Below the pieces are notes generated by a model. It searched no databases. It saw only the letters and a list, made by a program, of their open reading frames with translations, and was not told where the DNA came from. Positions 3,789 to 58,533 of a stretch of 64,000 bases of DNA are shown here, in pieces (position 1 is the first letter of the stretch; each line of letters starts with the position of its first letter). Origin of the DNA: Trypanosoma brucei (lineage: Eukaryota); contig CP000067.1 of the NCBI GenBank assembly GCA_000002445.1, positions 1,056,001 through 1,120,000 of the forward strand, given 5' to 3'. A program made the translations under genes and the position numbers.

Positions 3789-5159
3789 TCATCCCCTGAC
3801 GGTATCCAAAATGGTGGAGCCGGTGCCGAACACAATAAGAAACACACCGCACAGCAGCACCACATAAGTCGTAATGTAATATAAGGGCCCAACTTTCTGC
3901 CATGTGAAGCCCCCTGAGTACATAATCAACAACGCGGGGAAGACGAAACCCAGTGAACCACCACACACAGATCCGGCAATACCAAACACGGTGGTGATCT
4001 TCGGGATGAATATACTCAAAAGCAAAACAAGGAACGACAGTGTAATGACTGACACGCAATGCTTCCAAAAGGGTAGAGAATCCGCAGTCTTCCCAACGAC
4101 GTCATACAATGCATTACGACACGCCATAGCAACTAGGGCATAGGATACGCATAGTTTGATAACGACGCCAATCATACCAACCATTACAGCCGGCTCCTTT
4201 ACGGGGTCGTACATAAGCAAAATAGAACTGGTTGCGGTCTTACCAAAGTCCATGTAACCGAAAAAGGCAGTGATTATGTACATTATACAGCAAAGGGTAT
4301 TGGCAATGATGGCCGCAATAACAAACTTACGTACTGAACGATCCTTCATGTCAATATAAACTTCGTACGCTGTAATCTGCGATATGAATGCGAACATAAA
4401 TACTCCCATTCCCTCAATGGCCTGGAATCCGCTGTTGAATAGGATGATTTCGGCATCTTCGCTCTTGGTCACACTAACATTCTTTATATTCTCCGACAAG
4501 CCATTCATGCACGAGTGCACAACGATCACAATGACAAAATACACCATGAAGGTAACGGCAAAAGTGGAGACGTACCGAAGGGAGTCGATGTGACGCGGAA
4601 TCGTCAGTGGAAGCATAAAACATGCCCAAACCACCGCCATGAGAAGACGATTACCTGATTTTTCCTTCAGGAAGTCCGGCGCATTTGTGCCTTTCAAAAT
4701 GGCAGACAAAATATCTCCCACTGAAATCACGTAGGCAACACAACCACTAAAACCGAGTAGCGCTCGAATACCAGCAAGAACATACGCAGCCCCGCGGCCG
4801 AGAAGTGCGCGAGTTGCCCTCTCGAAGGTGGGGGCTCCTGAGCGGTCGGCTGCGACTGAGAGGTTGTGCATCGTGAAAACCGTTACGGAAGAGATGAAAA
4901 TGAGGTAAAACATTCCCATGATAAGGCCGGTACTGTTGGCCGCCGGAGGCATCCCGAAGATTCCCGCACCGATTGTTGTTGACGCCATGTTAAAAGCACT
5001 GGCCGCAATGCCACCCGGAGGCAAAACAGTGGCGACGCACAAACTCACCTTCGTAAAGAATGTGTTTCGCCCCTTCTTCACGTTATCTTCGGTCTGCACC
5101 GGTTCATTGGAGAGGTTGTTTGGCGTTTGCACTTCTTGTTGTTGCTTGGAGTTGCTCAT
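3789..5159 (-). CDS. Amino acid transporter (AAAP/AAT family), array copy 1. The track ORF runs to 5465; start proposed at the internal ATG (MSNSKQQQ...).
   Basis: Multi-TM protein with motifs typical of trypanosomatid AATs (GGIAASAFNMASTTIGAGIFGMP..., 10-11 hydrophobic segments). The extension from 5160 to 5465 is hydrophobic/low-complexity read-through with no counterpart in the paralog at 13244-14659. 'cat' at 5157-5159 was verified. Confidence 0.75.
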   Translation of the reverse strand: MSNSKQQQEVQTPNNLSNEPVQTEDNVKKGRNTFFTKVSLCVATVLPPGGIAASAFNMASTTIGAGIFGMPPAANSTGLIMGMFYLIFISSVTVFTMHNLSVAADRSGAPTFERATRALLGRGAAYVLAGIRALLGFSGCVAYVISVGDILSAILKGTNAPDFLKEKSGNRLLMAVVWACFMLPLTIPRHIDSLRYVSTFAVTFMVYFVIVIVVHSCMNGLSENIKNVSVTKSEDAEIILFNSGFQAIEGMGVFMFAFISQITAYEVYIDMKDRSVRKFVIAAIIANTLCCIMYIITAFFGYMDFGKTATSSILLMYDPVKEPAVMVGMIGVVIKLCVSYALVAMACRNALYDVVGKTADSLPFWKHCVSVITLSFLVLLLSIFIPKITTVFGIAGSVCGGSLGFVFPALLIMYSGGFTWQKVGPLYYITTYVVLLCGVFLIVFGTGSTILDTVRG

Positions 5160-6459
5160 TGCGTCTTGCAGTCGATTAGCACTTTTAGGGACTTCTTTTA
5201 CCCACAGAGTTTCGGGAACAAAAGGATGAAAGAGAAAGAGCATGAGGAAGTGATGTGCAAGGAAAGTTAGATATGCACAAGTTGGTGCGTACCATGTCTG
5301 AAAGTTTATTGAAGAAGATGCAAGCACACACCTGGAGAGACGCAAATGACGTTCGCCTCCCTTCGTTTTGTGCTTGAGCTGTGCAGCAGTTGCCCCGATG
5401 ATTGTAATGCACACGAGGTGATTTCCATACCAACGTTGAATAGAGTTGTTTGAGGGCAAATTCACTTGCCACTGGAGTTACAAACGCATAAAGTCGTTTC
5501 GGCATGCTAGTGATTGTTTGCTCACGTTTCTTGTCGATTGCGCCACTTCTTCAGTACCATACGACTTCATGCGAGATGAAGAGCGGGGAAGACTTCTGCA
5601 AGACAAAACTTAAAATGTTGCAGTGCTTTGAAGCAGAGTGGACATACACATAACTTTGCTCCTTGATACCACAGCTAGGAACGCAGCGCCCCAAAGTTAT
5701 GAATTACATATGAACTTGATGCACTTGATGGAAGCGGCACCGCGTGAATGCCACTACTGAAAGTGTATGAAAGGAAAGAAAAGACAATAAGAATATTAGG
5801 GGAAAGAACAAAGAAGGGGTTAATGTTTCGCAATTACCATTTAACCTAGTGGTATACCTGAGATAATAAAATCAGCGGTGCACCGAAAGAAACGCTGCAC
5901 AGCCTGAGCACCGAGGGAGGAAGTTGAGGTAAAAAGAAAAAAAAAGAAACCATAAAACAAAAAAGAAACCGAAAGGGACCCTCGAATGGTATCGCAGAAG
6001 CAGCATTTGGAGATGAGTGGACGCATGGAGTCGGCAAACTTGACGGTTTTACCACCGCTTTATTCAACGGCAATGGAGCCACCGCCTCCAGCCGCATCGC
6101 ATAATACGGCCAAATCACTGCAATTCGCACCTCCGCTTGTTGTATTTTCTAATCGGCGGACGTAACGAGGGAAAAACGATGGGACCCCAACGAGATGACA
6201 ACGACAAAAGAAAAAAAAGTAAAATAAAGAAATAAAAAGAAAATTAGCCCTTTCCGAATTTCTCAACGCCCACTCAAAGTTGTGGAGTGTACTGGGCAAA
6301 AATAAAATAAAAGACAAAAAGTAGATAAATACAACAACAAGCACACCAATAAATAGGAGGGAGAGTAAAAGAAATCAGAAAAAAAATTAGGGAAAAACAT
6401 TGAGGAGGAAAATGACGGTGACGGGTGGGGGAATATGAAACAAAGAGAATATATATATA

Positions 6460-6477
6460 TATATATAGGAATGACAC
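6460..6477. repeat. (TA)9 microsatellite in array unit 2
   Basis: Direct count; same flanking sequence as unit 1 ('caaagagaa...ggaatgacacgc'). Confidence 0.9.
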
Positions 6478-7097
6478 GCATATTTTTTTTTTTTCATTTT
6501 CCCTTTTGACACTCCACTCAAATCATTCGCTCTTTTCGTCCCCTCACCCGATCGCCATCATTAACCAAACTTTGATATCGCAGGCTGTGAAATTGCTCAA
6601 GACCGGACAAAACGAGGGAAAATAAAACAAAAAAAATAGAAAGTTGAGAAAGGTGTTGACACCACACATTATATTAAATACAAAAAAAAACAATGAACGA
6701 TGCTCATCACAGTGGTCAGGATACCTGCCAGTGGTGCACGATGGAAAGAAGTCCATGCGAAGGCCTTCCTCTACTTTTTTCCCTCTTTCGAAACGCATTA
6801 TTACTCATTTAAAAGACATTAACAACAATAACAACAACAAAATAATTACAAAGATATTATTTTTTAAAGTTAAAAAGAAACTAGGGTAGGGTAGAGAGGA
6901 AAACGAAACAAAACAAGCATAAGAAAGGTGATAGCATACAGTTGTGACCACTTTACCTTAAATAGAAATTTACTTTCTCTTTATATCTTGTTACACCCAG
7001 GGGCTTAGTGGGAAATAAGCACTTTCTCAGCTCTTGTCAGCGCCTCAAACTTAAGAATTGAGTCCGCCGCATGCTGGCACTTACGTTTAGTTTATGT

Positions 7098-8468
7098 TCA
7101 TCCCCTGACGGTATCCAAAATGGTGGAGCCGGTGCCGAACACAATAAGAAACACACCGCACAGCAGCACCACATAAGTCGTAATGTAATATAAGGGCCCA
7201 ACTTTCTGCCATGTGAAGCCCCCTGAGTACATAATCAACAACGCGGGGAAGACGAAACCCAGTGAACCACCACACACAGATCCGGCAATACCAAACACGG
7301 TGGTGATCTTCGGGATGAATATACTCAAAAGCAAAACAAGGAACGACAGTGTAATGACTGACACGCAATGCTTCCAAAAGGGTAGAGAATCCGCAGTCTT
7401 CCCAACGACGTCATACAATGCATTACGACACGCCATAGCAACTAGGGCATAGGATACGCATAGTTTGATAACGACGCCAATCATACCAACCATTACAGCC
7501 GGCTCCTTTACGGGGTCGTACATAAGCAAAATAGAACTGGTTGCGGTCTTACCAAAGTCCATGTAACCGAAAAAGGCAGTGATTATGTACATTATACAGC
7601 AAAGGGTATTGGCAATGATGGCCGCAATAACAAACTTACGTACTGAACGATCCTTCATGTCAATATAAACTTCGTACGCTGTAATCTGCGATATGAATGC
7701 GAACATAAATACTCCCATTCCCTCAATGGCCTGGAATCCGCTGTTGAATAGGATGATTTCGGCATCTTCGCTCTTGGTCACACTAACATTCTTTATATTC
7801 TCCGACAAGCCATTCATGCACGAGTGCACAACGATCACAATGACAAAATACACCATGAAGGTAACGGCAAAAGTGGAGACGTACCGAAGGGAGTCGATGT
7901 GACGCGGAATCGTCAGTGGAAGCATAAAACATGCCCAAACCACCGCCATGAGAAGACGATTACCTGATTTTTCCTTCAGGAAGTCCGGCGCATTTGTGCC
8001 TTTCAAAATGGCAGACAAAATATCTCCCACTGAAATCACGTAGGCAACACAACCACTAAAACCGAGTAGCGCTCGAATACCAGCAAGAACATACGCAGCC
8101 CCGCGGCCGAGAAGTGCGCGAGTTGCCCTCTCGAAGGTGGGGGCTCCTGAGCGGTCGGCTGCGACTGAGAGGTTGTGCATCGTGAAAACCGTTACGGAAG
8201 AGATGAAAATGAGGTAAAACATTCCCATGATAAGGCCGGTACTGTTGGCCGCCGGAGGCATCCCGAAGATTCCCGCACCGATTGTTGTTGACGCCATGTT
8301 AAAAGCACTGGCCGCAATGCCACCCGGAGGCAAAACAGTGGCGACGCACAAACTCACCTTCGTAAAGAATGTGTTTCGCCCCTTCTTCACGTTATCTTCG
8401 GTCTGCACCGGTTCATTGGAGAGGTTGTTTGGCGTTTGCACTTCTTGTTGTTGCTTGGAGTTGCTCAT
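7098..8468 (-). CDS. Amino acid transporter (AAAP/AAT family), array copy 2, identical at protein level to copy 1
   Basis: Identical 558-aa ORF in the track at 7098-8774. The same internal-start logic applies (8774 minus 306 = 8468). Confidence 0.75.
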   Translation of the reverse strand: MSNSKQQQEVQTPNNLSNEPVQTEDNVKKGRNTFFTKVSLCVATVLPPGGIAASAFNMASTTIGAGIFGMPPAANSTGLIMGMFYLIFISSVTVFTMHNLSVAADRSGAPTFERATRALLGRGAAYVLAGIRALLGFSGCVAYVISVGDILSAILKGTNAPDFLKEKSGNRLLMAVVWACFMLPLTIPRHIDSLRYVSTFAVTFMVYFVIVIVVHSCMNGLSENIKNVSVTKSEDAEIILFNSGFQAIEGMGVFMFAFISQITAYEVYIDMKDRSVRKFVIAAIIANTLCCIMYIITAFFGYMDFGKTATSSILLMYDPVKEPAVMVGMIGVVIKLCVSYALVAMACRNALYDVVGKTADSLPFWKHCVSVITLSFLVLLLSIFIPKITTVFGIAGSVCGGSLGFVFPALLIMYSGGFTWQKVGPLYYITTYVVLLCGVFLIVFGTGSTILDTVRG

Positions 8469-9759
8469 TGCGTCTTGCAGTCGATTAGCACTTTTAGGGA
8501 CTTCTTTTACCCACAGAGTTTCGGGAACAAAAGGATGAAAGAGAAAGAGCATGAGGAAGTGATGTGCAAGGAAAGTTAGATATGCACAAGTTGGTGCGTA
8601 CCATGTCTGAAAGTTTATTGAAGAAGATGCAAGCACACACCTGGAGAGACGCAAATGACGTTCGCCTCCCTTCGTTTTGTGCTTGAGCTGTGCAGCAGTT
8701 GCCCCGATGATTGTAATGCACACGAGGTGATTTCCATACCAACGTTGAATAGAGTTGTTTGAGGGCAAATTCACTTGCCACTGGAGTTACAAACGCATAA
8801 AGTCGTTTCGGCATGCTAGTGATTGTTTGCTCACGTTTCTTGTCGATTGCGCCACTTCTTCAGTACCATACGACTTCATGCGAGATGAAGAGCGGGGAAG
8901 ACTTCTGCAAGACAAAACTTAAAATGTTGCAGTGCTTTGAAGCAGAGTGGACATACACATAACTTTGCTCCTTGATACCACAGCTAGGAACGCAGCGCCC
9001 CAAAGTTATGAATTACATATGAACTTGATGCACTTGATGGAAGCGGCACCGCGTGAATGCCACTACTGAAAGTGTATGAAAGGAAAGAAAAGACAATAAG
9101 AATATTAGGGGAAAGAACAAAGAAGGGGTTAATGTTTCGCAATTACCATTTAACCTAGTGGTATACCTGAGATAATAAAATCAGCGGTGCACCGAAAGAA
9201 ACGCTGCACAGCCTGAGCACCGAGGGAGGAAGTTGAGGTAAAAAGAAAAAAAAAGAAACCATAAAACAAAAAAGAAACCGAAAGGGACCCTCGAATGGTA
9301 TCGCAGAAGCAGCATTTGGAGATGAGTGGACGCATGGAGTCGGCAAACTTGACGGTTTTACCACCGCTTTATTCAACGGCAATGGAGCCACCGCCTCCAG
9401 CCGCATCGCATAATACGGCCAAATCACTGCAATTCGCACCTCCGCTTGTTGTATTTTCTAATCGGCGGACGTAACGAGGGAAAAACGATGGGACCCCAAC
9501 GAGATGACAACGACAAAAGAAAAAAAAGTAAAATAAAGAAATAAAAAGAAAATTAGCCCTTTCCGAATTTCTCAACGCCCACTCAAAGTTGTGGAGTGTA
9601 CTGGGCAAAAATAAAATAAAAGACAAAAAGTAGATAAATACAACAACAAGCACACCAATAAATAGGAGGGAGAGTAAAAGAAATCAGAAAAAAAATTAGG
9701 GAAAAACATTGAGGAGGAAAATGACGGTGACGGGTGGGGGAATATGAAACAAAGAGAAT

Positions 9760-9783
9760 ATATATATATATATATATATATAG
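9760..9783. repeat. (TA)12 microsatellite in array unit 3
   Basis: Direct count; same flanks as units 1 and 2. Confidence 0.9.
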
Positions 9784-10411
9784 GAATGACACGCATATTT
9801 TTTTTTTTTCATTTTCCCTTTTGACACTCCACTCAAATCATTCGCTCTTTTCGTCCCCTCACCCGATCGCCATCATTAACCAAACTTTGATATCGCAGGC
9901 TGTGAAATTGCTCAAGACCGGACAAAACGAGGGAAAATAAAACAAAAAAAATAGAAAGTTGAGAAAGGTGTTGACACCACACATTATATTAAATACAAAA
10001 AAAACAATGAACGATGCTCATCACAGTGGTCAGGATACCTGCCAGTGGTGCACGATGGAAAGAAGTCCATGCGAAGGCCTTCCTCTACTTTTTTCCCTCT
10101 TTCGAAACGCATTATTACTCATTTAAAAGACATTAACAACAATAACAACAACAAAATAATTACAAAGATATTATTTTTTAAAGTTAAAAAGAAACTAGGG
10201 TAGGGTAGAGAGGAAAACGAAACAAAACAAGCATAAGAAAGGTGATAGCATACAGTTGTGACCACTTTACCTTAAATAGAAATTTACTTTCTCTTTATAT
10301 CTTGTTACACCCAGGGGCTTAGTGGGAAATAAGCACTTTCTCAGCTCTTGTCAGCGCCTCAAACTTAAGAATTGAGTCCGCCGCATGCTGGCACTTACGT
10401 TTAGTTTATGT

Positions 10412-11782
10412 TCATCCCCTGACGGTATCCAAAATGGTGGAGCCGGTGCCGAACACAATAAGAAACACACCGCACAGCAGCACCACATAAGTCGTAATGT
10501 AATATAAGGGCCCAACTTTCTGCCATGTGAAGCCCCCTGAGTACATAATCAACAACGCGGGGAAGACGAAACCCAGTGAACCACCACACACAGATCCGGC
10601 AATACCAAACACGGTGGTGATCTTCGGGATGAATATACTCAAAAGCAAAACAAGGAACGACAGTGTAATGACTGACACGCAATGCTTCCAAAAGGGTAGA
10701 GAATCCGCAGTCTTCCCAACGACGTCATACAATGCATTACGACACGCCATAGCAACTAGGGCATAGGATACGCATAGTTTGATAACGACGCCAATCATAC
10801 CAACCATTACAGCCGGCTCCTTTACGGGGTCGTACATAAGCAAAATAGAACTGGTTGCGGTCTTACCAAAGTCCATGTAACCGAAAAAGGCAGTGATTAT
10901 GTACATTATACAGCAAAGGGTATTGGCAATGATGGCCGCAATAACAAACTTACGTACTGAACGATCCTTCATGTCAATATAAACTTCGTACGCTGTAATC
11001 TGCGATATGAATGCGAACATAAATACTCCCATTCCCTCAATGGCCTGGAATCCGCTGTTGAATAGGATGATTTCGGCATCTTCGCTCTTGGTCACACTAA
11101 CATTCTTTATATTCTCCGACAAGCCATTCATGCACGAGTGCACAACGATCACAATGACAAAATACACCATGAAGGTAACGGCAAAAGTGGAGACGTACCG
11201 AAGGGAGTCGATGTGACGCGGAATCGTCAGTGGAAGCATAAAACATGCCCAAACCACCGCCATGAGAAGACGATTACCTGATTTTTCCTTCAGGAAGTCC
11301 GGCGCATTTGTGCCTTTCAAAATGGCAGACAAAATATCTCCCACTGAAATCACGTAGGCAACACAACCACTAAAACCGAGTAGCGCTCGAATACCAGCAA
11401 GAACATACGCAGCCCCGCGGCCGAGAAGTGCGCGAGTTGCCCTCTCGAAGGTGGGGGCTCCTGAGCGGTCGGCTGCGACTGAGAGGTTGTGCATCGTGAA
11501 AACCGTTACGGAAGAGATGAAAATGAGGTAAAACATTCCCATGATAAGGCCGGTACTGTTGGCCACCGGAGGCATCCCGAAGATTCCCGCACCGATTGTT
11601 GTTGACGCCATGTTAAAAGCACTGGCCGCAATGCCACCCGGAGGCAAAACAGTGGCGACGCACAAACTCACCTTCGTAAAGAATGTGTTTCGCCCCTTCT
11701 TCACGTTATCTTCGGTCTGCACCGGTTCATTGGAGAGGTTGTTTGGCGTTTGCACTTCTTGTTGTTGCTTGGAGTTGCTCAT
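10412..11782 (-). CDS. Amino acid transporter (AAAP/AAT family), array copy 3, with a single A-to-V substitution
   Basis: The ORF at 10412-12088 differs from copies 1 and 2 only at GMPPVANSTG versus GMPPAANSTG. This is a g-to-a change at ~11565 on the plus strand ('ggccaccgg' versus 'ggccgccgg'). Confidence 0.75.
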   Translation of the reverse strand: MSNSKQQQEVQTPNNLSNEPVQTEDNVKKGRNTFFTKVSLCVATVLPPGGIAASAFNMASTTIGAGIFGMPPVANSTGLIMGMFYLIFISSVTVFTMHNLSVAADRSGAPTFERATRALLGRGAAYVLAGIRALLGFSGCVAYVISVGDILSAILKGTNAPDFLKEKSGNRLLMAVVWACFMLPLTIPRHIDSLRYVSTFAVTFMVYFVIVIVVHSCMNGLSENIKNVSVTKSEDAEIILFNSGFQAIEGMGVFMFAFISQITAYEVYIDMKDRSVRKFVIAAIIANTLCCIMYIITAFFGYMDFGKTATSSILLMYDPVKEPAVMVGMIGVVIKLCVSYALVAMACRNALYDVVGKTADSLPFWKHCVSVITLSFLVLLLSIFIPKITTVFGIAGSVCGGSLGFVFPALLIMYSGGFTWQKVGPLYYITTYVVLLCGVFLIVFGTGSTILDTVRG

Positions 11783-13243
11783 TGCGTCTTGCAGTCGATT
11801 AGCACTTTTAGGGACTTCTTTTACCCACAGAGTTTCGGGAACAAAAGGATGAAAGAGAAAGAGCATGAGGAAGTGATGTGCAAGGAAAGTTAGATATGCA
11901 CAAGTTGGTGCGTACCATGTCTGAAAGTTTATTGAAGAAGATGCAAGCACACACCTGGAGAGACGCAAATGACGTTCGCCTCCCTTCGTTTTGTGCTTGA
12001 GCTGTGCAGCAGTTGCCCCGATGATTGTAATGCACACGAGGTGATTTCCATACCAACGTTGAATAGAGTTGTTTGAGGGCAAATTCACTTGCCACTGGAG
12101 TTACAAACGCATAAAGTCGTTTCGGCATGCTAGTGATTGTTTGCTCACGTTTCTTGTCGATTGCGCCACTTCTTCAGTACCATACGACTTCATGCGAGAT
12201 GAAGAGCGGGGAAGACTTCTGCAAGACAAAACTTAAAATGTTGCAGTGCTTTGAAGCAGAGTGGACATACACATAACTTTGCTCCTTGATACCACAGCTA
12301 GGAACGCAGCGCCCCAAAGTTATGAATTACATATGAACTTGATGCACTTGATGGAAGCGGCACCGCGTGAATGCCACTACTGAAAGTGTATGAAAGGAAA
12401 GAAAAGACAATAAGAATATTAGGGGAAAGAACAAAGAAGGGGTTAATGTTTCGCAATTACCATTTAACCTAGTGGTATACCTGAGATAATAAAATCAGCG
12501 GTGCACCGAAAGAAATGCTGCACAGCCTGAGCACCGAGGGAGGAAGTTGAGGTAAAAAGAAAAAAAAAGAAACCATAAAACAAAAAAGAAACCGAAAGGG
12601 ACCCTCGAATGGTATCGCAGAAGCAGCATTTGGAGATGAGTGGACGCATGGAGTCGGCAAACTTGACGGTTTTACCACCGCTTTATTCAACGGCAATGGA
12701 GCCACCGCCTCCAGCCGCATCGCATAATACGGCCAAATCACTGCAATTCGCACCTCCGCTTGTTGTATTTTCTAATCGGCGGACGTAACGAGGGAAAAAC
12801 GATGGGACCCCAACGAGATGACAACGACAAAAGAAAAAAAAGAAAACAAAAGAATTTGAGCAGGAATTTTTTTGGGAAAAAGAGATGAAATTTGCTTCAC
12901 ATGTTGTAAAGATCAAGTACTTTAATCGTTCCACAATGCAGTGGCGAAGTAAAAGATGAAAGAAGACCTACCACCAAACCAATGAAAAAAGAACCGAAAG
13001 TGGTCCGCTCATTCGCTACCACTGCGGCAGCAAAAAAAGAGGGAAAATGAGTGGAATGCGAAAGGGTGGAGACAACTGTTGCCGAAAGAGTGAAGACACG
13101 TTGGTGGCGGTTAACTATCCTCCGCTGCGTTCAATGGTAATAGGCAGATAAGTAACAAAACATCTGATTTATTTATTTACTTATTTACTGACTCTCCTCC
13201 TTTACCTCCTTTTTTTCTTCAATAGGAACTTCAAAGCCGCCGG

Positions 13244-14659
13244 TTAACCAGTTATAGTGCCCCATATACTTGCACCCGTGCCGAAAACAATGCCTACAAC
13301 ACCACAAATTAGTAAAACATATGTCGCAAGATAATGTAAAGACCCAACTTTCTGCCATGTGAAGCCCCCTGAGTACATAATCAACAACGCGGGGAAGACG
13401 AAACCCAGTGAACCACCGGTAATCGAGCCAGAAAAACCAAGGACGGTATTAACATTGGGAATGAATAGACCCAAAAGCAGTGCAGCAGTGGACAGCACGA
13501 TGACTGACACGCAATGCTTCCAAAAGGGTAGAGAATCCACATTCTTCTCTGCAATGCTGTACAATGCATTACGACACGCCATAGCGAGCAGCGCATACGA
13601 AGCAACCAGCTTTACAAGCACGCCAATCATACCAACCATTACAGCCGGCTCCTTTACGGGGTCGTACATAAGCAAAATAGAACCGGAAACAGCACGACCA
13701 AAGTCCATGTAACCGAAAAAGGCAGTGATTATGTACAGCGCAGTACACAGGGACATGGCAATGATGGCCGCAATAACAAACTTACGTACTGAACGATCCT
13801 TCATGTCAATATAAACTTCATACGCCGTGTCCTGACAAGTGTAGGAAAACATAAATACTCCCAACCCTTCAATGGCTTCATTCCCGCTATTAAAGAGAAT
13901 GATGGCAGCTGTATCACTCTTTCCAACACTAACATTCTTTATATTCTCCGACAAGCCATTCATGCACGAGTGCACAACGATCACAATGACAAAATACACC
14001 ATGAAGGTAACGGCAAAAGTGGAGACGTACCGAAGGGAGTCGACGTGACGCGGGATCGCCAGTGGAAGCATAAAACATGCCCAAACCACCGCCGTGAGAA
14101 GACGATTACCTGATTTTTCCTTCAGGAAGTCCGGCGCATTTGTGCCTTTCAAAATGGCAGACAAAATATCTCCCACTGAAATTACGTAGGCAACACAACT
14201 CGTAAAACCATCAAGCGCTCGAAGAACAGCAATGGCATAAGCAACTCTACGACCCATGAGGACAAATGTTACGCTTTCATATGTGGGTGCTTTGGAGCGG
14301 TCCGCTGCGAGGGCGAGATTACGCATGGAATAGATAGTCATGCAACTAATAAAAAAGAGGTAAAACATTCCCATGATAAGTCCACTGCTGCCGGCCGATG
14401 ACGGCAAGCCAAAGATGCCAGCGCCCAGCGTTGTCGCTGCGATGTTGAAGGCACTGGCGATTGTACCTCCGGGAGGGATGAATGCAGCAAATTGTGTGCT
14501 CTGCTCACCAGGAGGTTGCTTCCCTGATTGGGGTTCGTTTGATTGAACATTTTGACTGGTTTCACAGTTTCCAACGTTATTATTGACAACGGTGTGACCG
14601 ATCGGCTCGAAACAATTGTGAGGTACGGTGTTGCTTGTATTTTCTCTGGCAATACACAT
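13244..14659 (-). CDS. Amino acid transporter (AAAP/AAT family), a divergent mosaic paralog immediately downstream of the array
   Basis: 471-aa ORF. The central region is identical or near-identical to the array copies (for example FAVTFMVYFVIVIVVHSCMNGLSENIKNVSV and YEVYIDMKDRSVRKFVIAAIIA). The N-terminal 60 aa and the C-terminal 70 aa have diverged. Confidence 0.8.
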   Translation of the reverse strand: MCIARENTSNTVPHNCFEPIGHTVVNNNVGNCETSQNVQSNEPQSGKQPPGEQSTQFAAFIPPGGTIASAFNIAATTLGAGIFGLPSSAGSSGLIMGMFYLFFISCMTIYSMRNLALAADRSKAPTYESVTFVLMGRRVAYAIAVLRALDGFTSCVAYVISVGDILSAILKGTNAPDFLKEKSGNRLLTAVVWACFMLPLAIPRHVDSLRYVSTFAVTFMVYFVIVIVVHSCMNGLSENIKNVSVGKSDTAAIILFNSGNEAIEGLGVFMFSYTCQDTAYEVYIDMKDRSVRKFVIAAIIAMSLCTALYIITAFFGYMDFGRAVSGSILLMYDPVKEPAVMVGMIGVLVKLVASYALLAMACRNALYSIAEKNVDSLPFWKHCVSVIVLSTAALLLGLFIPNVNTVLGFSGSITGGSLGFVFPALLIMYSGGFTWQKVGSLHYLATYVLLICGVVGIVFGTGASIWGTITG

Positions 14660-55899: not shown

Positions 55900-58533
55900 T
55901 CACACGCCCTTCTTACGGTCTGTTTCCCTCGCCTTGCGTGTGCCAAGATACCTCACCACGTCATCGAAGGTTAACACCTCGTTTTCCAACAAGTGTTTGG
56001 CAAGCGTTTCCATCTCCTCCTTTTTCGATAACAACAGACTATATGTCTGCTCATATATTTCATCGACCAGCTTCTTTGCCTCCACATCGATATGGTTTGA
56101 CACTTTGGGCCCGAACGGTTTCACAATGCGCGTCCCCGCAGTACCTGGAGCGGGGTACACAGGCCGTGGTGCGAATGAACTAACAAACATGTACGCCATT
56201 CGTGCCACCTTGTTGAGATCATCGGATGCACCTGTGGAAAGATGGTTGAAAAAAATCTTCTCCGCCACGCGTCCGCCCAACGTCACGCTGATGGAGTCCC
56301 GAATCTCAGCTGCGGTCCGCACATTGTTTTCATTCGGTAGGTATTGAGCGTAACCAAGCGCTGAACCGCCGCGAGGTACGATGGAAACTTTCATGAGTGG
56401 ATCAGCGCGGTTGAGGAACCAACCGGCAACGGCATGACCTGCTTCGTGGTGAGCAACAACCTGCCGCTCAAATGGCGACAGCACACGGCTGCGGTGCTCA
56501 ATACCTGCCAATACTCGGTCAATGGAACGTTCCAAATGGGTAATGTCAACATTTGAATTGTTTTCTCGTGCTGCAAGTATAGCGGCTTCATTGCACACGT
56601 TGGCAATGTCGGCTCCAGTGAAACCTGGACAGAGACTGCTCATGCGTTCAGCATAGGAATTAATGAGGGCACGCTCGCGTTCGCTCTTATTTGCGAGAAG
56701 CGTCCGGAAATCGTAGGAGGGGTCCCCTGTCAGTTTCTCCTGTTCTAGCAGCTCTTGTTCAGCTTCCATCTCTTCTTGTAGTTTACTAACAACAAGTGAG
56801 GATGTGGTTGCGTTTGCTGTACTTACTTCACAGCTGTTGAAACCCTTAGCCTCATCAGCGGTAGGTGATTTATTTTCCGAAGAAGGAACCGTCCCCGACT
56901 CCATTTTCCCTTCATCGTCACTCTTGGCGTTGGCCTTAGCGTCAGACTTCTTGGACTCGGAAGATTCTGTGGACGCTTCTTCTGTTTGCTGTTCCACCTC
57001 TGCACCCTTAGCACCCTTGTTGCTTTCCTTCACCAATGTCAACGCACTGAGGTGGACCTTAAATATATCAATTCTCTCCGATATGACGGGCATGTCTACG
57101 TGAATAATACGGTCAAACCTTCCAGGACGTACAAGCGCCGGATCCAGCTGCTCCTGCGATACGTTACTAGATGCCAATATCATAACGTCTCCACGACGGC
57201 TGCTACTGAATCCATCCAATTGTGTTAGCAGTTCATTAAGTGTATGTTCTTGCTCCTGCTTTTCGCCGATACCAGCACCCGTTCGTTTCAGCCCAATGGC
57301 ATCAATCTCGTCAATATAAACGATGCAACGCTGCTTCTTCGCAACCTCAAACAACTGCCTAACACGCAATGCGCCCATCCCCACATACAACTCCACGAAG
57401 TCCGAACCGCAAACCGGGATGAAGCCCACTCCACTTTCACCTGCCACAGCTTTCGCCAGGAGTGTTTTACCCGTACCTGGCGGCCCCAGAAGAAGTGCCC
57501 CAGTTGGCACTTTTGCCCCCAATGACGTATAGCGCTCGGGGTGGCGGAGGAAATCTACCACCTCAGTCACCTCCTTTTTGGCTTCCTTTAAGCCGGCAAT
57601 GTGCTTGAAGCGTGTGCTGGATGAGAGTTCCACACGAAACACCATTTCCTTTGATTTGTGTGTCTTTTTACCAGCCTCCAACGTCAGCGCGAGTGACTTA
57701 CCAATGGAATTGGAGAGAACCATCACAAACACAGGGAAGAACACGAACGGCACAACCCACGCGAAAACACCCAACACTACCAGCGCTTGCTCTCCCAGTG
57801 GCGTTCCCTGCAGCGATACCTCGATTCCCTCCGATTTCGTTGTTACCGTCTCCCCATTCCCTTGCGGCCGCGGCTCTTTTATTCTCGTCGTTACTGCATC
57901 ATTATACGCCTTATTCAGTTTTTCCAGCTTTTCTTGGGTGTGCTGGTCGTCTACCAGTCCGAGGTAAACCTTTCCTTCACTGAGATACACCTGCGCGTAG
58001 TTGTGGTATAACTTAATGCTCTTTACGATCTCAGCATTCTTTAATAGCGATGCCCATCCAGTTTGTTTACCCAAGGGCTGAGAAAGCTTGTACAATACGT
58101 AGGAAGTTCCAAGCATCACCAATACGAAGAGCACAGAGCGTGCAACTATCAACTCCTCGGTGTTGTCATCTTCTGAAGATGAATTCGGGAATATGGGGCT
58201 TTCCTCTTCCTTTTTGTCCCTACCATTCTGCTCACCAGCCGTGTTATTTCCCCCATCAGAGGGTTTCGCAGAGAGAATTTTACCACGAGACAACTGCTTC
58301 ACCGCCATCGATGTGCCAAACGCTGTGACTAATTGCCGCAAATGGTTGAATGGCGAACTTCTGCCAAATTGGGGAGATGAGTCACGTGCAACCGAATAAG
58401 CAGTCAATACCTGCAGTTTGCTTTGCTGCTTTGGCTCAAAACTAACATGACTCATTGAAATAACGAGACCAGTGTGGGACGGGTAGCGCGGCCTGTGGGC
58501 CATTGGCAATGAGGCGAGCAAGTAGCGGCGCAT
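55900..58533 (-). CDS. Mitochondrial m-AAA/FtsH-family ATP-dependent zinc metalloprotease with a ~110-aa low-complexity insertion in the AAA module. Start proposed at the internal ATG 58533 (MRRYLLASLPMAHRPRYPS...).
   Basis: Two TM helices; Walker A GPPGTGKTLLAKA; Walker B IVYIDEIDA; arginine finger region PGRFDRIIHV; lid 'GFTGADIANVCNEAA'; and the HEXXH zinc site 'HHEAGHAVAGW'. The N-terminus is Arg-rich, like a presequence. 'cat' at 58531-58533 was verified. Confidence 0.85.
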   Translation of the reverse strand: MRRYLLASLPMAHRPRYPSHTGLVISMSHVSFEPKQQSKLQVLTAYSVARDSSPQFGRSSPFNHLRQLVTAFGTSMAVKQLSRGKILSAKPSDGGNNTAGEQNGRDKKEEESPIFPNSSSEDDNTEELIVARSVLFVLVMLGTSYVLYKLSQPLGKQTGWASLLKNAEIVKSIKLYHNYAQVYLSEGKVYLGLVDDQHTQEKLEKLNKAYNDAVTTRIKEPRPQGNGETVTTKSEGIEVSLQGTPLGEQALVVLGVFAWVVPFVFFPVFVMVLSNSIGKSLALTLEAGKKTHKSKEMVFRVELSSSTRFKHIAGLKEAKKEVTEVVDFLRHPERYTSLGAKVPTGALLLGPPGTGKTLLAKAVAGESGVGFIPVCGSDFVELYVGMGALRVRQLFEVAKKQRCIVYIDEIDAIGLKRTGAGIGEKQEQEHTLNELLTQLDGFSSSRRGDVMILASSNVSQEQLDPALVRPGRFDRIIHVDMPVISERIDIFKVHLSALTLVKESNKGAKGAEVEQQTEEASTESSESKKSDAKANAKSDDEGKMESGTVPSSENKSPTADEAKGFNSCEVSTANATTSSLVVSKLQEEMEAEQELLEQEKLTGDPSYDFRTLLANKSERERALINSYAERMSSLCPGFTGADIANVCNEAAILAARENNSNVDITHLERSIDRVLAGIEHRSRVLSPFERQVVAHHEAGHAVAGWFLNRADPLMKVSIVPRGGSALGYAQYLPNENNVRTAAEIRDSISVTLGGRVAEKIFFNHLSTGASDDLNKVARMAYMFVSSFAPRPVYPAPGTAGTRIVKPFGPKVSNHIDVEAKKLVDEIYEQTYSLLLSKKEEMETLAKHLLENEVLTFDDVVRYLGTRKARETDRKKGV

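What the first reader, a model, noticed from the sequence alone, without database searches (positions are those of the whole stretch)
55900..58533. m-AAA/FtsH protease with a ~110-residue acidic/Ser-rich insertion splitting the AAA small (lid) subdomain
Between the conserved 'PGRFDRIIHVDMPVISERIDIFKVHLSAL' block and the lid motif 'GFTGADIANVCNEAA' there is an insertion that canonical FtsH/AFG3L2/Yta10 lack (TLVKESNKGAKGAEVEQQTEEASTESSESKKSDAKANAKSDDEGKMESGTVPSSENKSPTADEAKGFNSCEVSTANATTSSLVVSKLQEEMEAEQELLEQEK...). An insertion there would protrude from the hexamer's ATPase ring surface. It could be a lineage-specific regulatory or substrate-docking element, or a phosphorylation platform given the many S/T/E residues.
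Basis: partly seen in the sequence, partly recalled or inferred. Interest (0 to 1): 0.6.

Follow-up and report, generated by a model that had tools for sequence, protein, structure and literature searches.

The report
Kinetoplastid m-AAA protease with lid insertion
The mitochondrial FtsH/m-AAA protease gene of Trypanosoma brucei on chromosome 4 really does carry about 120 extra residues in the small subdomain of its ATPase: a fast-evolving disordered acidic loop followed by a short conserved helix, found in all kinetoplastid orthologues and in no other FtsH examined, with no function yet shown.

Summary
Window 55900-58533 (minus strand) encodes an 877-aa FtsH-family protease identical to T. 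brucei brucei TREU927 XP_844571.1. It is most likely Tb927.4.3300, called FtsH33. It has two TM segments, and its Walker A/B, Arg-finger and HEAGH motifs are intact. Its best solved relative is human AFG3L2.

Between lid helices alpha5 and alpha6 there are 140 residues where other FtsH and m-AAA proteins have 18-20. All kinetoplastid-clade orthologues carry 97-196 extra-long segments at this site, and a few unnamed relatives carry 430-507.

The insert has two parts:
- Residues ~503-577 are an unalignable linker, always net-acidic and rich in A/T/E/S, which AlphaFold2 models as disordered.
- Residues 578-616 are conserved in trypanosomatids: S-[SA]-L-V-V-S, a charged helix, then [YF]-D-F-R-x-L-L. 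AlphaFold2 models this part as a confident extra helix, even in an isolated lid construct.

A profile of the ordered part finds nothing outside this clade among 1.84 billion cluster representatives.

My reading is a lineage-specific, peripheral, non-catalytic lid extension on a flexible tether. A docking or regulatory role is inferred, not shown. The phosphorylation-platform idea finds no support. This is a variant of a known enzyme and of modest interest.

The parts
55900..58533 (-). Complete CDS with stop: 877-aa mitochondrial FtsH/m-AAA-type protease (T. brucei XP_844571.1/Q57Y25; most likely Tb927.4.3300, 'FtsH33')
   Evidence: ORF and translation. Exact-sequence look-up. Pfam AAA, AAA_lid_3 and Peptidase_M41. 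Gene name from bioRxiv 10.1101/2025.02.21.639415; linking it to this ORF is my inference from the chromosome-4 location.
58090..58152 (-). TM1 (aa ~128-148)
   Evidence: Hydropathy scan. AF2 helix 123-151.
57790..58089 (-). Intermembrane-space domain between the TMs (aa ~149-248)
   Evidence: AF2 mixed alpha/beta domain with pLDDT ~85-95. 30-60% identity among orthologues.
57709..57789 (-). TM2 (aa ~249-275)
   Evidence: Hydropathy scan. AF2 helix 246-295.
57085..57618 (-). AAA large subdomain (aa 306-483): Walker A GPPGTGKT 350-357, Walker B IVYIDE 404-409, pore loop YVG 383, RPGRFD 469
   Evidence: 76-91% identity across the kinetoplastid clade.
57037..57084 (-). Lid helix alpha5 (aa 484-499), upstream of the insert
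56686..57036 (-). The whole lineage-specific insert (aa 500-616, ~117 aa) in the alpha5-alpha6 loop
56803..57027 (-). Part 1 of the insert: variable net-acidic disordered linker (aa 503-577)
   Evidence: 7-21% identity to orthologues. pLDDT below 50 for 514-578. Net negative charge in 31 of 31 orthologues and almost no aromatics. D540Y is the only internal polymorphism among T. brucei subspecies.
56728..56802 (-). Part 2 of the insert: motif A, S-[SA]-L-[VI]-[VL]-S plus charged helix (aa 578-602)
   Evidence: Alignments. AF2 helix 582-602 with pLDDT 85-93 in the full-length model, and 73-86 in the isolated lid construct.
56686..56727 (-). Part 3 of the insert: motif B, [SA]-[YF]-D-F-R-x-L-L-x-x-K (aa 603-616), leading into an N-terminally lengthened alpha6
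   Evidence: D invariant and L-L nearly invariant in 20 trypanosomatid sequences. AF2 short helix 610-613, then helix 618-634.
56494..56685 (-). Rest of the lid, alpha6-alpha8 (aa 617-680), including GFTGAD 637-642
   Evidence: Pfam AAA_lid_3 631-668. AF2 helices 618-634, 640-656 and 664-676.
55957..56484 (-). Peptidase M41 domain (aa 684-859) with HEAGH 696-700 (56434-56448)

Best explanation
The gene encodes a working mitochondrial inner-membrane m-AAA/FtsH protease subunit. In the kinetoplastid lineage its AAA lid subdomain acquired a two-part insertion in the loop between helices alpha5 and alpha6.

Part one (aa ~503-577) is an intrinsically disordered tether. Its sequence and length drift freely. 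Its bulk properties are kept: net negative charge, A/T/E/S/G/P richness and almost no aromatic or large hydrophobic residues.

Part two (aa 578-616) is under purifying selection in trypanosomatids. It consists of a short hydrophobic anchor (S-[SA]-L-V-V-S), a charged helix, and a [YF]-D-F-R-x-L-L element that lengthens alpha6. Together they add an extra helical layer to the four-helix lid.

By the up-down topology of the lid, the alpha5-alpha6 loop lies at the end of the bundle away from the nucleotide pocket (inferred, not computed). The insert should therefore project from the outer rim of the matrix-side ATPase ring and leave the motor and the protease chamber intact.

The most likely role is a new peripheral surface on the lid for a neighbouring subunit or a lineage-specific partner, held on a flexible acidic tether. 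The tether's composition may also make it a poor substrate for the enzyme's own pore.

Shown here: the existence, position, phylogenetic spread, two-part conservation pattern and predicted order/disorder of the insert. Inferred: its orientation in the hexamer, and any docking, regulatory or anti-self-degradation role.
For: - The insert is real and its position is precise.
- The catalytic motifs are intact. The AAA core is 76-91% identical across the clade, while the linker is 7-21% identical.
- Motifs A and B are conserved across Trypanosoma, Leishmaniinae, Phytomonas and Strigomonas.
- AF2 gives pLDDT below 50 for 514-578. It gives helix 582-602 at pLDDT 85-93, and still 73-86 when only residues 480-680 are modelled.
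- Solved AAA lids align over only the canonical 70-85 residues and none matches the extra helix.
- Linker net charge is negative in 31 of 31 orthologues.
- No clade member has fewer than 97 residues at this site.
- The ordered part has no relatives outside the clade among 1.84e9 representatives.
- Some relatives have a 430-507-aa insert at the same site, with a ~240-aa core that is homologous between them at 32% identity, E 6e-26. This shows the site can carry a large addition.
- A precedent exists for a functional lineage-specific insertion in a mitochondrial AAA+ protease: the E-domain of human ClpX, needed for hexamer assembly (review PMC12994072).
Against: - There are no functional data of any kind.
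- No PAE or coordinates were available, so contact between the extra helix and the lid is inferred from pLDDT alone. E/Q/K-rich segments can be modelled as confident isolated helices.
- The helix is not significantly amphipathic: hydrophobic moment 0.145 against 0.171 +/- 0.087 for shuffles.
- Outside trypanosomatids (Trypanoplasma borreli, P0047, P0051-53) the profile matches only alpha6 onward, so motifs A and B are not conserved clade-wide.
- The uniformly negative charge comes from related sequences and may partly reflect shared compositional bias.
- The hexamer geometry was reasoned from fold topology, not computed.
Confidence: 0.55

Rival explanations
1. Neutral expansion segment. The alpha5-alpha6 loop is solvent-exposed and tolerant, and low-complexity sequence accumulated there by slippage and drift. 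It persists because nothing removes it, and the whole insert has no function.
For: - Linker identity is 7-21% and its length ranges widely; the whole segment is 97-196 aa, or up to 507 aa.
- The only internal polymorphism among T. brucei subspecies lies in it.
- An unrelated-looking Asn/Thr repeat insert sits at the same site in P0064.
- No Pfam domain is found in it.
- This account probably does hold for the linker's sequence.
Against: - Motifs A and B are conserved across trypanosomatids within otherwise unalignable sequence and are modelled with high confidence.
- The insert has never been lost or shortened below ~97 aa in the clade.
- Net charge is negative in 31 of 31 orthologues.
Confidence: 0.28
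2. Phosphorylation platform. Ser/Thr residues in the acidic loop are phosphorylated to regulate protease activity or partner binding.
For: 26 S/T residues in 112 aa, in an acidic and disordered context.
Against: - S/T positions are not conserved, because the linker cannot be aligned.
- Leishmaniinae linkers are Ala-rich, with 19-32% S/T.
- S/T-x-x-D/E sites are not enriched: 2 in 117 aa against 16 in 760 aa.
- The domain follows TM2, so it should face the matrix (inferred from topology).
- Tb927.4.3300 does not appear in the held supplements of two T. brucei phosphoproteome papers. This is weak evidence because the files may be cut.
Confidence: 0.07
3. Processing site. The exposed loop is cut in vivo, so the mature enzyme is a two-chain protein. 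By analogy with the split F1-ATPase alpha subunit of Euglenozoa (recalled from memory), the loop would serve only as a cleavable spacer.
For: Only the ~65-75-residue disordered, protease-accessible loop.
Against: There is no direct evidence. The conserved motifs downstream are not explained by a spacer role.
Confidence: 0.05
4. Artefact. The segment is an unspliced intron, a frameshift, a misassembly or an intein rather than part of the protein.
For: None found.
Against: - The reading frame is uninterrupted.
- The same protein appears in three independent T. brucei assemblies.
- Every orthologue has an insert at the same site.
- The composition is like the rest of the gene and there are no repeats.
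- The segment is too small and too low in complexity for an intein.
- From general knowledge, cis-splicing is very rare in trypanosomes.
Confidence: 0.01

Closest known systems
Human AFG3L2 / yeast Yta10(Afg3)-Yta12(Rca1) m-AAA proteases (PDB 6nyy)
   Same: - Same family and architecture: two TMs, an IMS domain, AAA, a four-helix lid and an M41 protease.
- Best sequence match, E 2.9e-129, and best fold match, TM 0.81 on the target.
- All catalytic motifs are present.
   Different: AFG3L2 has ~7 residues, and fungal Rca1/Afg3 the canonical short loop, where the trypanosome protein has ~125. The extra helix has no counterpart in them.
Bacterial FtsH (for example Thermus 2dhr, Thermotoga 2ce7, E. 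coli)
   Same: The AAA plus M41 core is 38-43% identical over the alignment.
   Different: There are 18 residues between KVHL and PGF, against 140 here.
Vps4 beta-domain and ClpB/Hsp104 middle domain (insertions in the small AAA subdomain that bind Vta1 or Hsp70) - recalled from memory
   Same: These are additions to the lid or small subdomain at the periphery of the ring that act as cofactor-docking or regulatory elements. They show how such an insert could work.
E-domain of human mitochondrial ClpX
   Same: A lineage-specific insertion in a mitochondrial AAA+ protease ATPase. It contacts the neighbouring subunit and is needed for hexamer assembly (PMC12994072).
   Different: It is inserted in the large subdomain rather than the lid, in a different AAA+ clade, and its role has been shown experimentally.
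Chloroplast FtsHi / Ycf2 motor subunits (PDB 8xkv, 8xqw)
   Different: They are mostly proteolytically inactive pseudo-proteases in a protein-import motor, whereas HEAGH is intact here.

Membership tests
FtsH / AAA-metalloprotease family (MEROPS M41) | AAA ATPase module followed by a Peptidase_M41 domain in one chain | tested here: met
   Pfam AAA 7.9e-36, AAA_lid_3 3.5e-11 and Peptidase_M41 4.1e-46, all above their gathering scores.
FtsH / AAA-metalloprotease family (MEROPS M41) | Walker A, Walker B, second region of homology with Arg fingers, aromatic pore loop | tested here: met
   GPPGTGKT 350, IVYIDE 404, RPGRFD 469 and YVG 383. These columns are invariant in the 91-sequence alignment.
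FtsH / AAA-metalloprotease family (MEROPS M41) | HEXXH zinc site | tested here: met
   HEAGH 696-700. H696, E697 and H700 are invariant.
m-AAA subfamily (AFG3L2/SPG7/Yta10/Yta12) | Closest relatives are m-AAA subunits rather than i-AAA (YME1) | tested here: met
   AFG3L2 scores 435.7 bits against 283.8 for YME1. Foldseek ranks AFG3L2 chains at the top among experimental structures. The T. borreli orthologue is labelled K08956 AFG3 by its source.
m-AAA subfamily (AFG3L2/SPG7/Yta10/Yta12) | Two transmembrane segments flanking an intermembrane-space domain, placing the catalytic domains in the matrix | tested here: met
   Two hydrophobic segments at 128-148 and 249-275, modelled as long helices. 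The actual orientation in the membrane was not tested here. Kovalinka et al. 2020 determined it for all six T. brucei homologues, but that paper is not held.
m-AAA subfamily (AFG3L2/SPG7/Yta10/Yta12) | Hexameric ring assembly, homo- or hetero-oligomeric | not testable with these tools
   No multimer prediction and no coordinates were available.
Intrinsically disordered region (aa ~503-577) | No stable predicted structure, low-complexity composition, rapid sequence turnover | tested here: met
   pLDDT below 50 for 514-578. Pooled over 31 orthologues the linker is A/T/E/S-rich with F, W and Y each ~0.1%. Identity to orthologues is 7-21%.
Lid-subdomain cofactor-docking insertions (Vps4 beta-domain / ClpB M-domain type) | A folded insertion in the small subdomain with a demonstrated partner | not testable with these tools
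   Only a ~39-residue helical element is predicted and no partner is known. I treat this as an analogy only.

The most novel reading that the evidence does not exclude
The conserved anchor-plus-helix element (aa 578-616), tethered by the acidic loop, is a kinetoplastid-specific docking or regulatory module on the rim of the m-AAA ring. It would either reach across to a neighbouring subunit to tune ring assembly or ATPase coupling, or recruit a lineage-specific adaptor or substrate. In some relatives the same site has grown into a ~240-aa folded domain with the same job. That would be a new way of regulating an m-AAA protease through its lid.
Probability: 0.2. Interest if true: 0.55.

Novelty: new variant of a known kind. 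Interest (0 to 1): 0.3.

Why it matters
m-AAA proteases are central to mitochondrial protein quality control and ribosome and respiratory-chain biogenesis. In T. brucei the mitochondrion is remodelled between life-cycle stages. A parasite-specific surface element on an otherwise very conserved enzyme (AAA core 76-91% identical across the clade) could mark a lineage-specific regulatory contact. It is also a feature absent from the human enzyme. If the element proves dispensable, it is one more example of a tolerated expansion segment in a trypanosomatid protein, at a loop that can be used as a permissive site for tagging.

Tried and rejected
1. Phosphoproteome check. The supplements of PMC6907760 and PMC11408851 held no Tb927.4.3300. 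PMC13524880 and PMC4621835 have no supplements held. My guessed PMC id for Urbaniak 2013 (PMC3646404) is not held. The question is unresolved.

2. Kovalinka et al. 2020, the paper on the six T. brucei FtsH homologues, is not held. I could not see whether the insert is mentioned there or which orientation was found for this protein.

3. The other five T. brucei FtsH paralogues could not be retrieved. The homology searches list only the best 120 hits, which were orthologues followed by bacterial FtsH. Whether any paralogue has an insert at this site is untested.

4. A second homology search with P0056 aimed to name the deeper-branching group and find diplonemid or euglenid orthologues. It returned no named non-kinetoplastid member. 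The age of the insert beyond Trypanosomatida plus Trypanoplasma is therefore open.

5. The last homology search, using the large P0041 insert, scored nothing at E <= 0.001, not even P0041 itself. It is uninformative, probably because low-complexity words filled the candidate list.

6. Contig look-ups for P0041 and P0051 gave no taxon.

7. Pfam scans of the T. brucei insert and of the large inserts gave only sub-threshold chance hits.

8. Tandem-repeat origin: none found.

9. Amphipathic or coiled-coil reading of helix 580-602: the hydrophobic moment is no higher than for shuffled sequences, so I make no coiled-coil claim.

10. P0196 and P0200, which hit the motif profile, are translations of repeat arrays with many weak copies (for example YDFSPHVCRLTEAERVFLTVYQAL). 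I treat them as chance.

11. Neighbouring genes (amino-acid transporters, TRM13, an ABC transporter, a PDE-like protein, a Ras-like GTPase, a DnaJ protein) are unrelated.
Full report
**What is at the locus.** The window is trypanosome DNA. All 22 ORFs of 250 aa or more but one lie on the minus strand, and the single plus-strand ORF sits inside a longer minus-strand one. The ORF of the finding runs on the minus strand from ATG at 58533 to the stop at 55900, giving 877 aa. The longer TTG-initiated ORF reaching 58608 comes from the mechanical ORF listing. The protein is identical to T. brucei brucei TREU927 XP_844571.1/Q57Y25, which lies on a 1,590,432-bp record. T. b. gambiense and T. b. equiperdum differ only at D540Y and M11V. 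The literature names a chromosome-4 'mitochondrial zinc metallopeptidase' Tb927.4.3300, called FtsH33. Equating it with this ORF is my inference.

**Family.** Pfam finds AAA (347-480), AAA_lid_3 (631-668) and Peptidase_M41 (684-859). The following motifs are present, and their core residues are invariant in a 91-sequence alignment:
- Walker A, GPPGTGKT
- Walker B, IVYIDE
- pore loop, YVG
- RPGRFD
- HEAGH

Two hydrophobic segments at 128-148 and 249-275 flank a ~100-aa domain. The best solved relative is human AFG3L2 at 435.7 bits, against 283.8 for YME1. AFG3L2 is also the best experimental fold match, with TM 0.81 normalised on the target. The protein is therefore an m-AAA-type FtsH, and nothing suggests that it is inactive.

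AFG3L2 aligns in two blocks, leaving 125 query residues opposite 7. Three measures agree:
- Between KVHL and PGF there are 18-20 residues in 48 bacterial and eukaryotic FtsH/AFG3 proteins, including Acrasis kona, a discoban like the trypanosomes. There are 140 in the query and 97-196 in the other 42 clade members in that alignment.
- Over all 195 proteins fetched, the PGRFDR..GF.GAD spacing is 39-43 in 168 AAA modules. These include fungal Rca1/Afg3 and diatom AFG3. The spacing is 118-507 in the kinetoplastid clade.
- The clade includes Trypanosoma, Leishmania and other Leishmaniinae, Phytomonas, Strigomonas, Trypanoplasma borreli and unnamed environmental relatives.

**The insert does split the lid.** Isolated proteasomal Rpt lid structures of 74-75 residues align over 72-73 residues, at 1.6 Å, to a model of residues 480-680. 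Only ~64 of those residues lie downstream of the insert. Helix alpha5 (484-496) must therefore supply the rest.

**Anatomy of the insert.** The insert is not uniform.
1. Residues ~503-577 are unalignable. They are 7-21% identical to orthologues, while the flanking AAA core is 76-91% identical. The linker varies from 32 to 104 residues among 31 trypanosomatid sequences. Pooled, it is rich in A, T, E, S, G, D and P, with F, W and Y each about 0.1%. Its net charge is negative in all 31. AlphaFold2 gives pLDDT below 50 for 514-578. Ser-richness is a T. brucei trait, and Leishmaniinae linkers are Ala/Thr-rich.
2. Residues 578-602 carry a conserved S-[SA]-L-[VI]-[VL]-S core followed by a charged helix. 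AF2 models helix 582-602 at pLDDT 85-93.
3. Residues 603-616 carry [SA]-[YF]-D-F-R-x-L-L-x-x-K. The D is invariant and the L-L nearly so in 20 trypanosomatid sequences. This leads into an alpha6 (618-634) that looks N-terminally lengthened compared with the short canonical alpha5-alpha6 loop.

When only residues 480-680 are modelled, the extra helix is still predicted, at pLDDT 73-86. This suggests that it rests on the lid itself. No PAE or coordinates were available, and charged helices can score well without packing, so this remains an inference. The helix is not significantly amphipathic.

**Artefact excluded.** The frame is continuous, and the protein recurs in independent assemblies. Every orthologue has an insert at the same site. 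There is no tandem repeat in the DNA. GC and GC3 (0.49/0.49) are close to the rest of the gene (0.51/0.54).

**Mechanism.** What is shown is a peripheral two-part addition to the lid of an otherwise intact motor. The rest is inference. The lid is an up-down helical bundle whose alpha6-alpha7 turn (GFTGAD) faces the nucleotide. The alpha5-alpha6 turn is therefore at the far end, on the outer rim of the ring. The domain follows TM2, so it should face the matrix. I think the conserved anchor-plus-helix is a lid extension that offers a new surface to a neighbouring subunit or a lineage-specific partner. The acidic loop would be a tether constrained only in bulk properties.

Two analogies show that such additions can be functional. 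The eukaryote-specific E-domain of human ClpX is needed for hexamer assembly (PMC12994072). The Vps4 beta-domain and the ClpB M-domain, recalled from memory, are docking or regulatory lid additions. None of these is related to this insert.

The main rival is neutral expansion. It probably does describe the linker sequence, but it does not explain the conserved motifs or the insert's unbroken retention.

The phosphorylation idea has no support. S/T positions are not conserved, and S/T-x-x-D/E sites are not enriched, at 2 in 117 aa against 16 in 760 aa. The held phosphoproteome supplements do not list the gene, although those files may be cut.

**What is known.** I found no paper in the held library that mentions this insert. 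Kovalinka et al. 2020, the key paper on the six T. brucei FtsH homologues, is not held. A review of AAA+ structural insertions deals with clade-defining insertions in the large subdomain, not with the lid of FtsH. The protein itself is annotated and named. Lineage-specific disordered insertions in conserved trypanosomatid proteins are common (general knowledge).

**Verdict.** This is a real, precisely placed insertion, conserved across the clade, in a known enzyme. It has an interesting conserved sub-element but no functional evidence. I rate it a new variant of a known kind, interest 0.3.

Noticed in passing
P0039 (1170 aa), P0041 (1079 aa, NCBI assembly GCA_041447075.1), P0043 (1235 aa): Three unnamed relatives of the same clade carry a 430-507-aa insert at exactly the same alpha5-alpha6 site, flanked by the same A-Y-E-F-D-F motif. 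The core is homologous between them (P0039 vs P0041: 32% identity over 240 aa, E 6e-26) and looks helical. It has no Pfam match and no similarity to the T. brucei insert. It appears to be a folded domain grown inside the loop. The taxon is unknown.
   Followed up: partly
P0064 (793 aa, ENA metagenome): A more distant FtsH has a ~160-aa Asn/Thr-rich tandem low-complexity insert (TNTISEGANTNTTG repeated) at the same lid site. The loop may therefore be a recurrent hot spot for expansion.
   Followed up: no
window 3789-14659 (-): Three ORFs of 558 aa each, 3.3 kb apart (3789-5465, 7098-8774, 10412-12088), and a fourth of 471 aa (13244-14659). The first and the fourth were scanned and match Pfam Aa_trans. 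This looks like a tandem array of amino-acid transporter genes.
   Followed up: partly
window 1-64000: All long ORFs but one lie on the minus strand, and the one plus-strand ORF is nested in a longer minus-strand ORF. This is what one polycistronic transcription unit would look like. The neighbours of the protease gene (DnaJ, TRM13, ABC transporter, PDE-like, Ras-like GTPase, several without a Pfam hit) are functionally unrelated.
   Followed up: partly
window 58455-58533 (-), aa 1-27: The start codon is uncertain. M1, M11 and M27 are all in frame, and a T. brucei gene model from a Logan assembly (P0123, 851 aa) starts at M27. The N-terminal 120 residues are poorly conserved and modelled as disordered, as expected for a presequence region.
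   Followed up: partly
window 56914-56916 (-), aa 540: D540 in TREU927 is Y in T. b. gambiense, T. b. equiperdum and a Logan assembly. It is the only internal difference among the four T. brucei proteins, and it lies in the disordered linker.
   Followed up: yes
P0031, P0032, P0035, P0037, P0038, P0061-P0063, P0132-P0140: Many high-scoring hits are 1200-1500-aa proteins with two or three tandem FtsH-type AAA modules, each with canonical 39-aa spacing. Several are from dinoflagellates (Polarella, Symbiodinium, Durusdinium, Effrenium). They may be fused multi-FtsH genes or polyprotein-like models.
   Followed up: no
P0196 (3397 aa), P0200 (1181 aa): These are translations of long tandem repeat arrays that hit the motif profile through many weak copies (17 and 6 stretches). 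They look like spurious gene calls on repeat DNA.
   Followed up: partly
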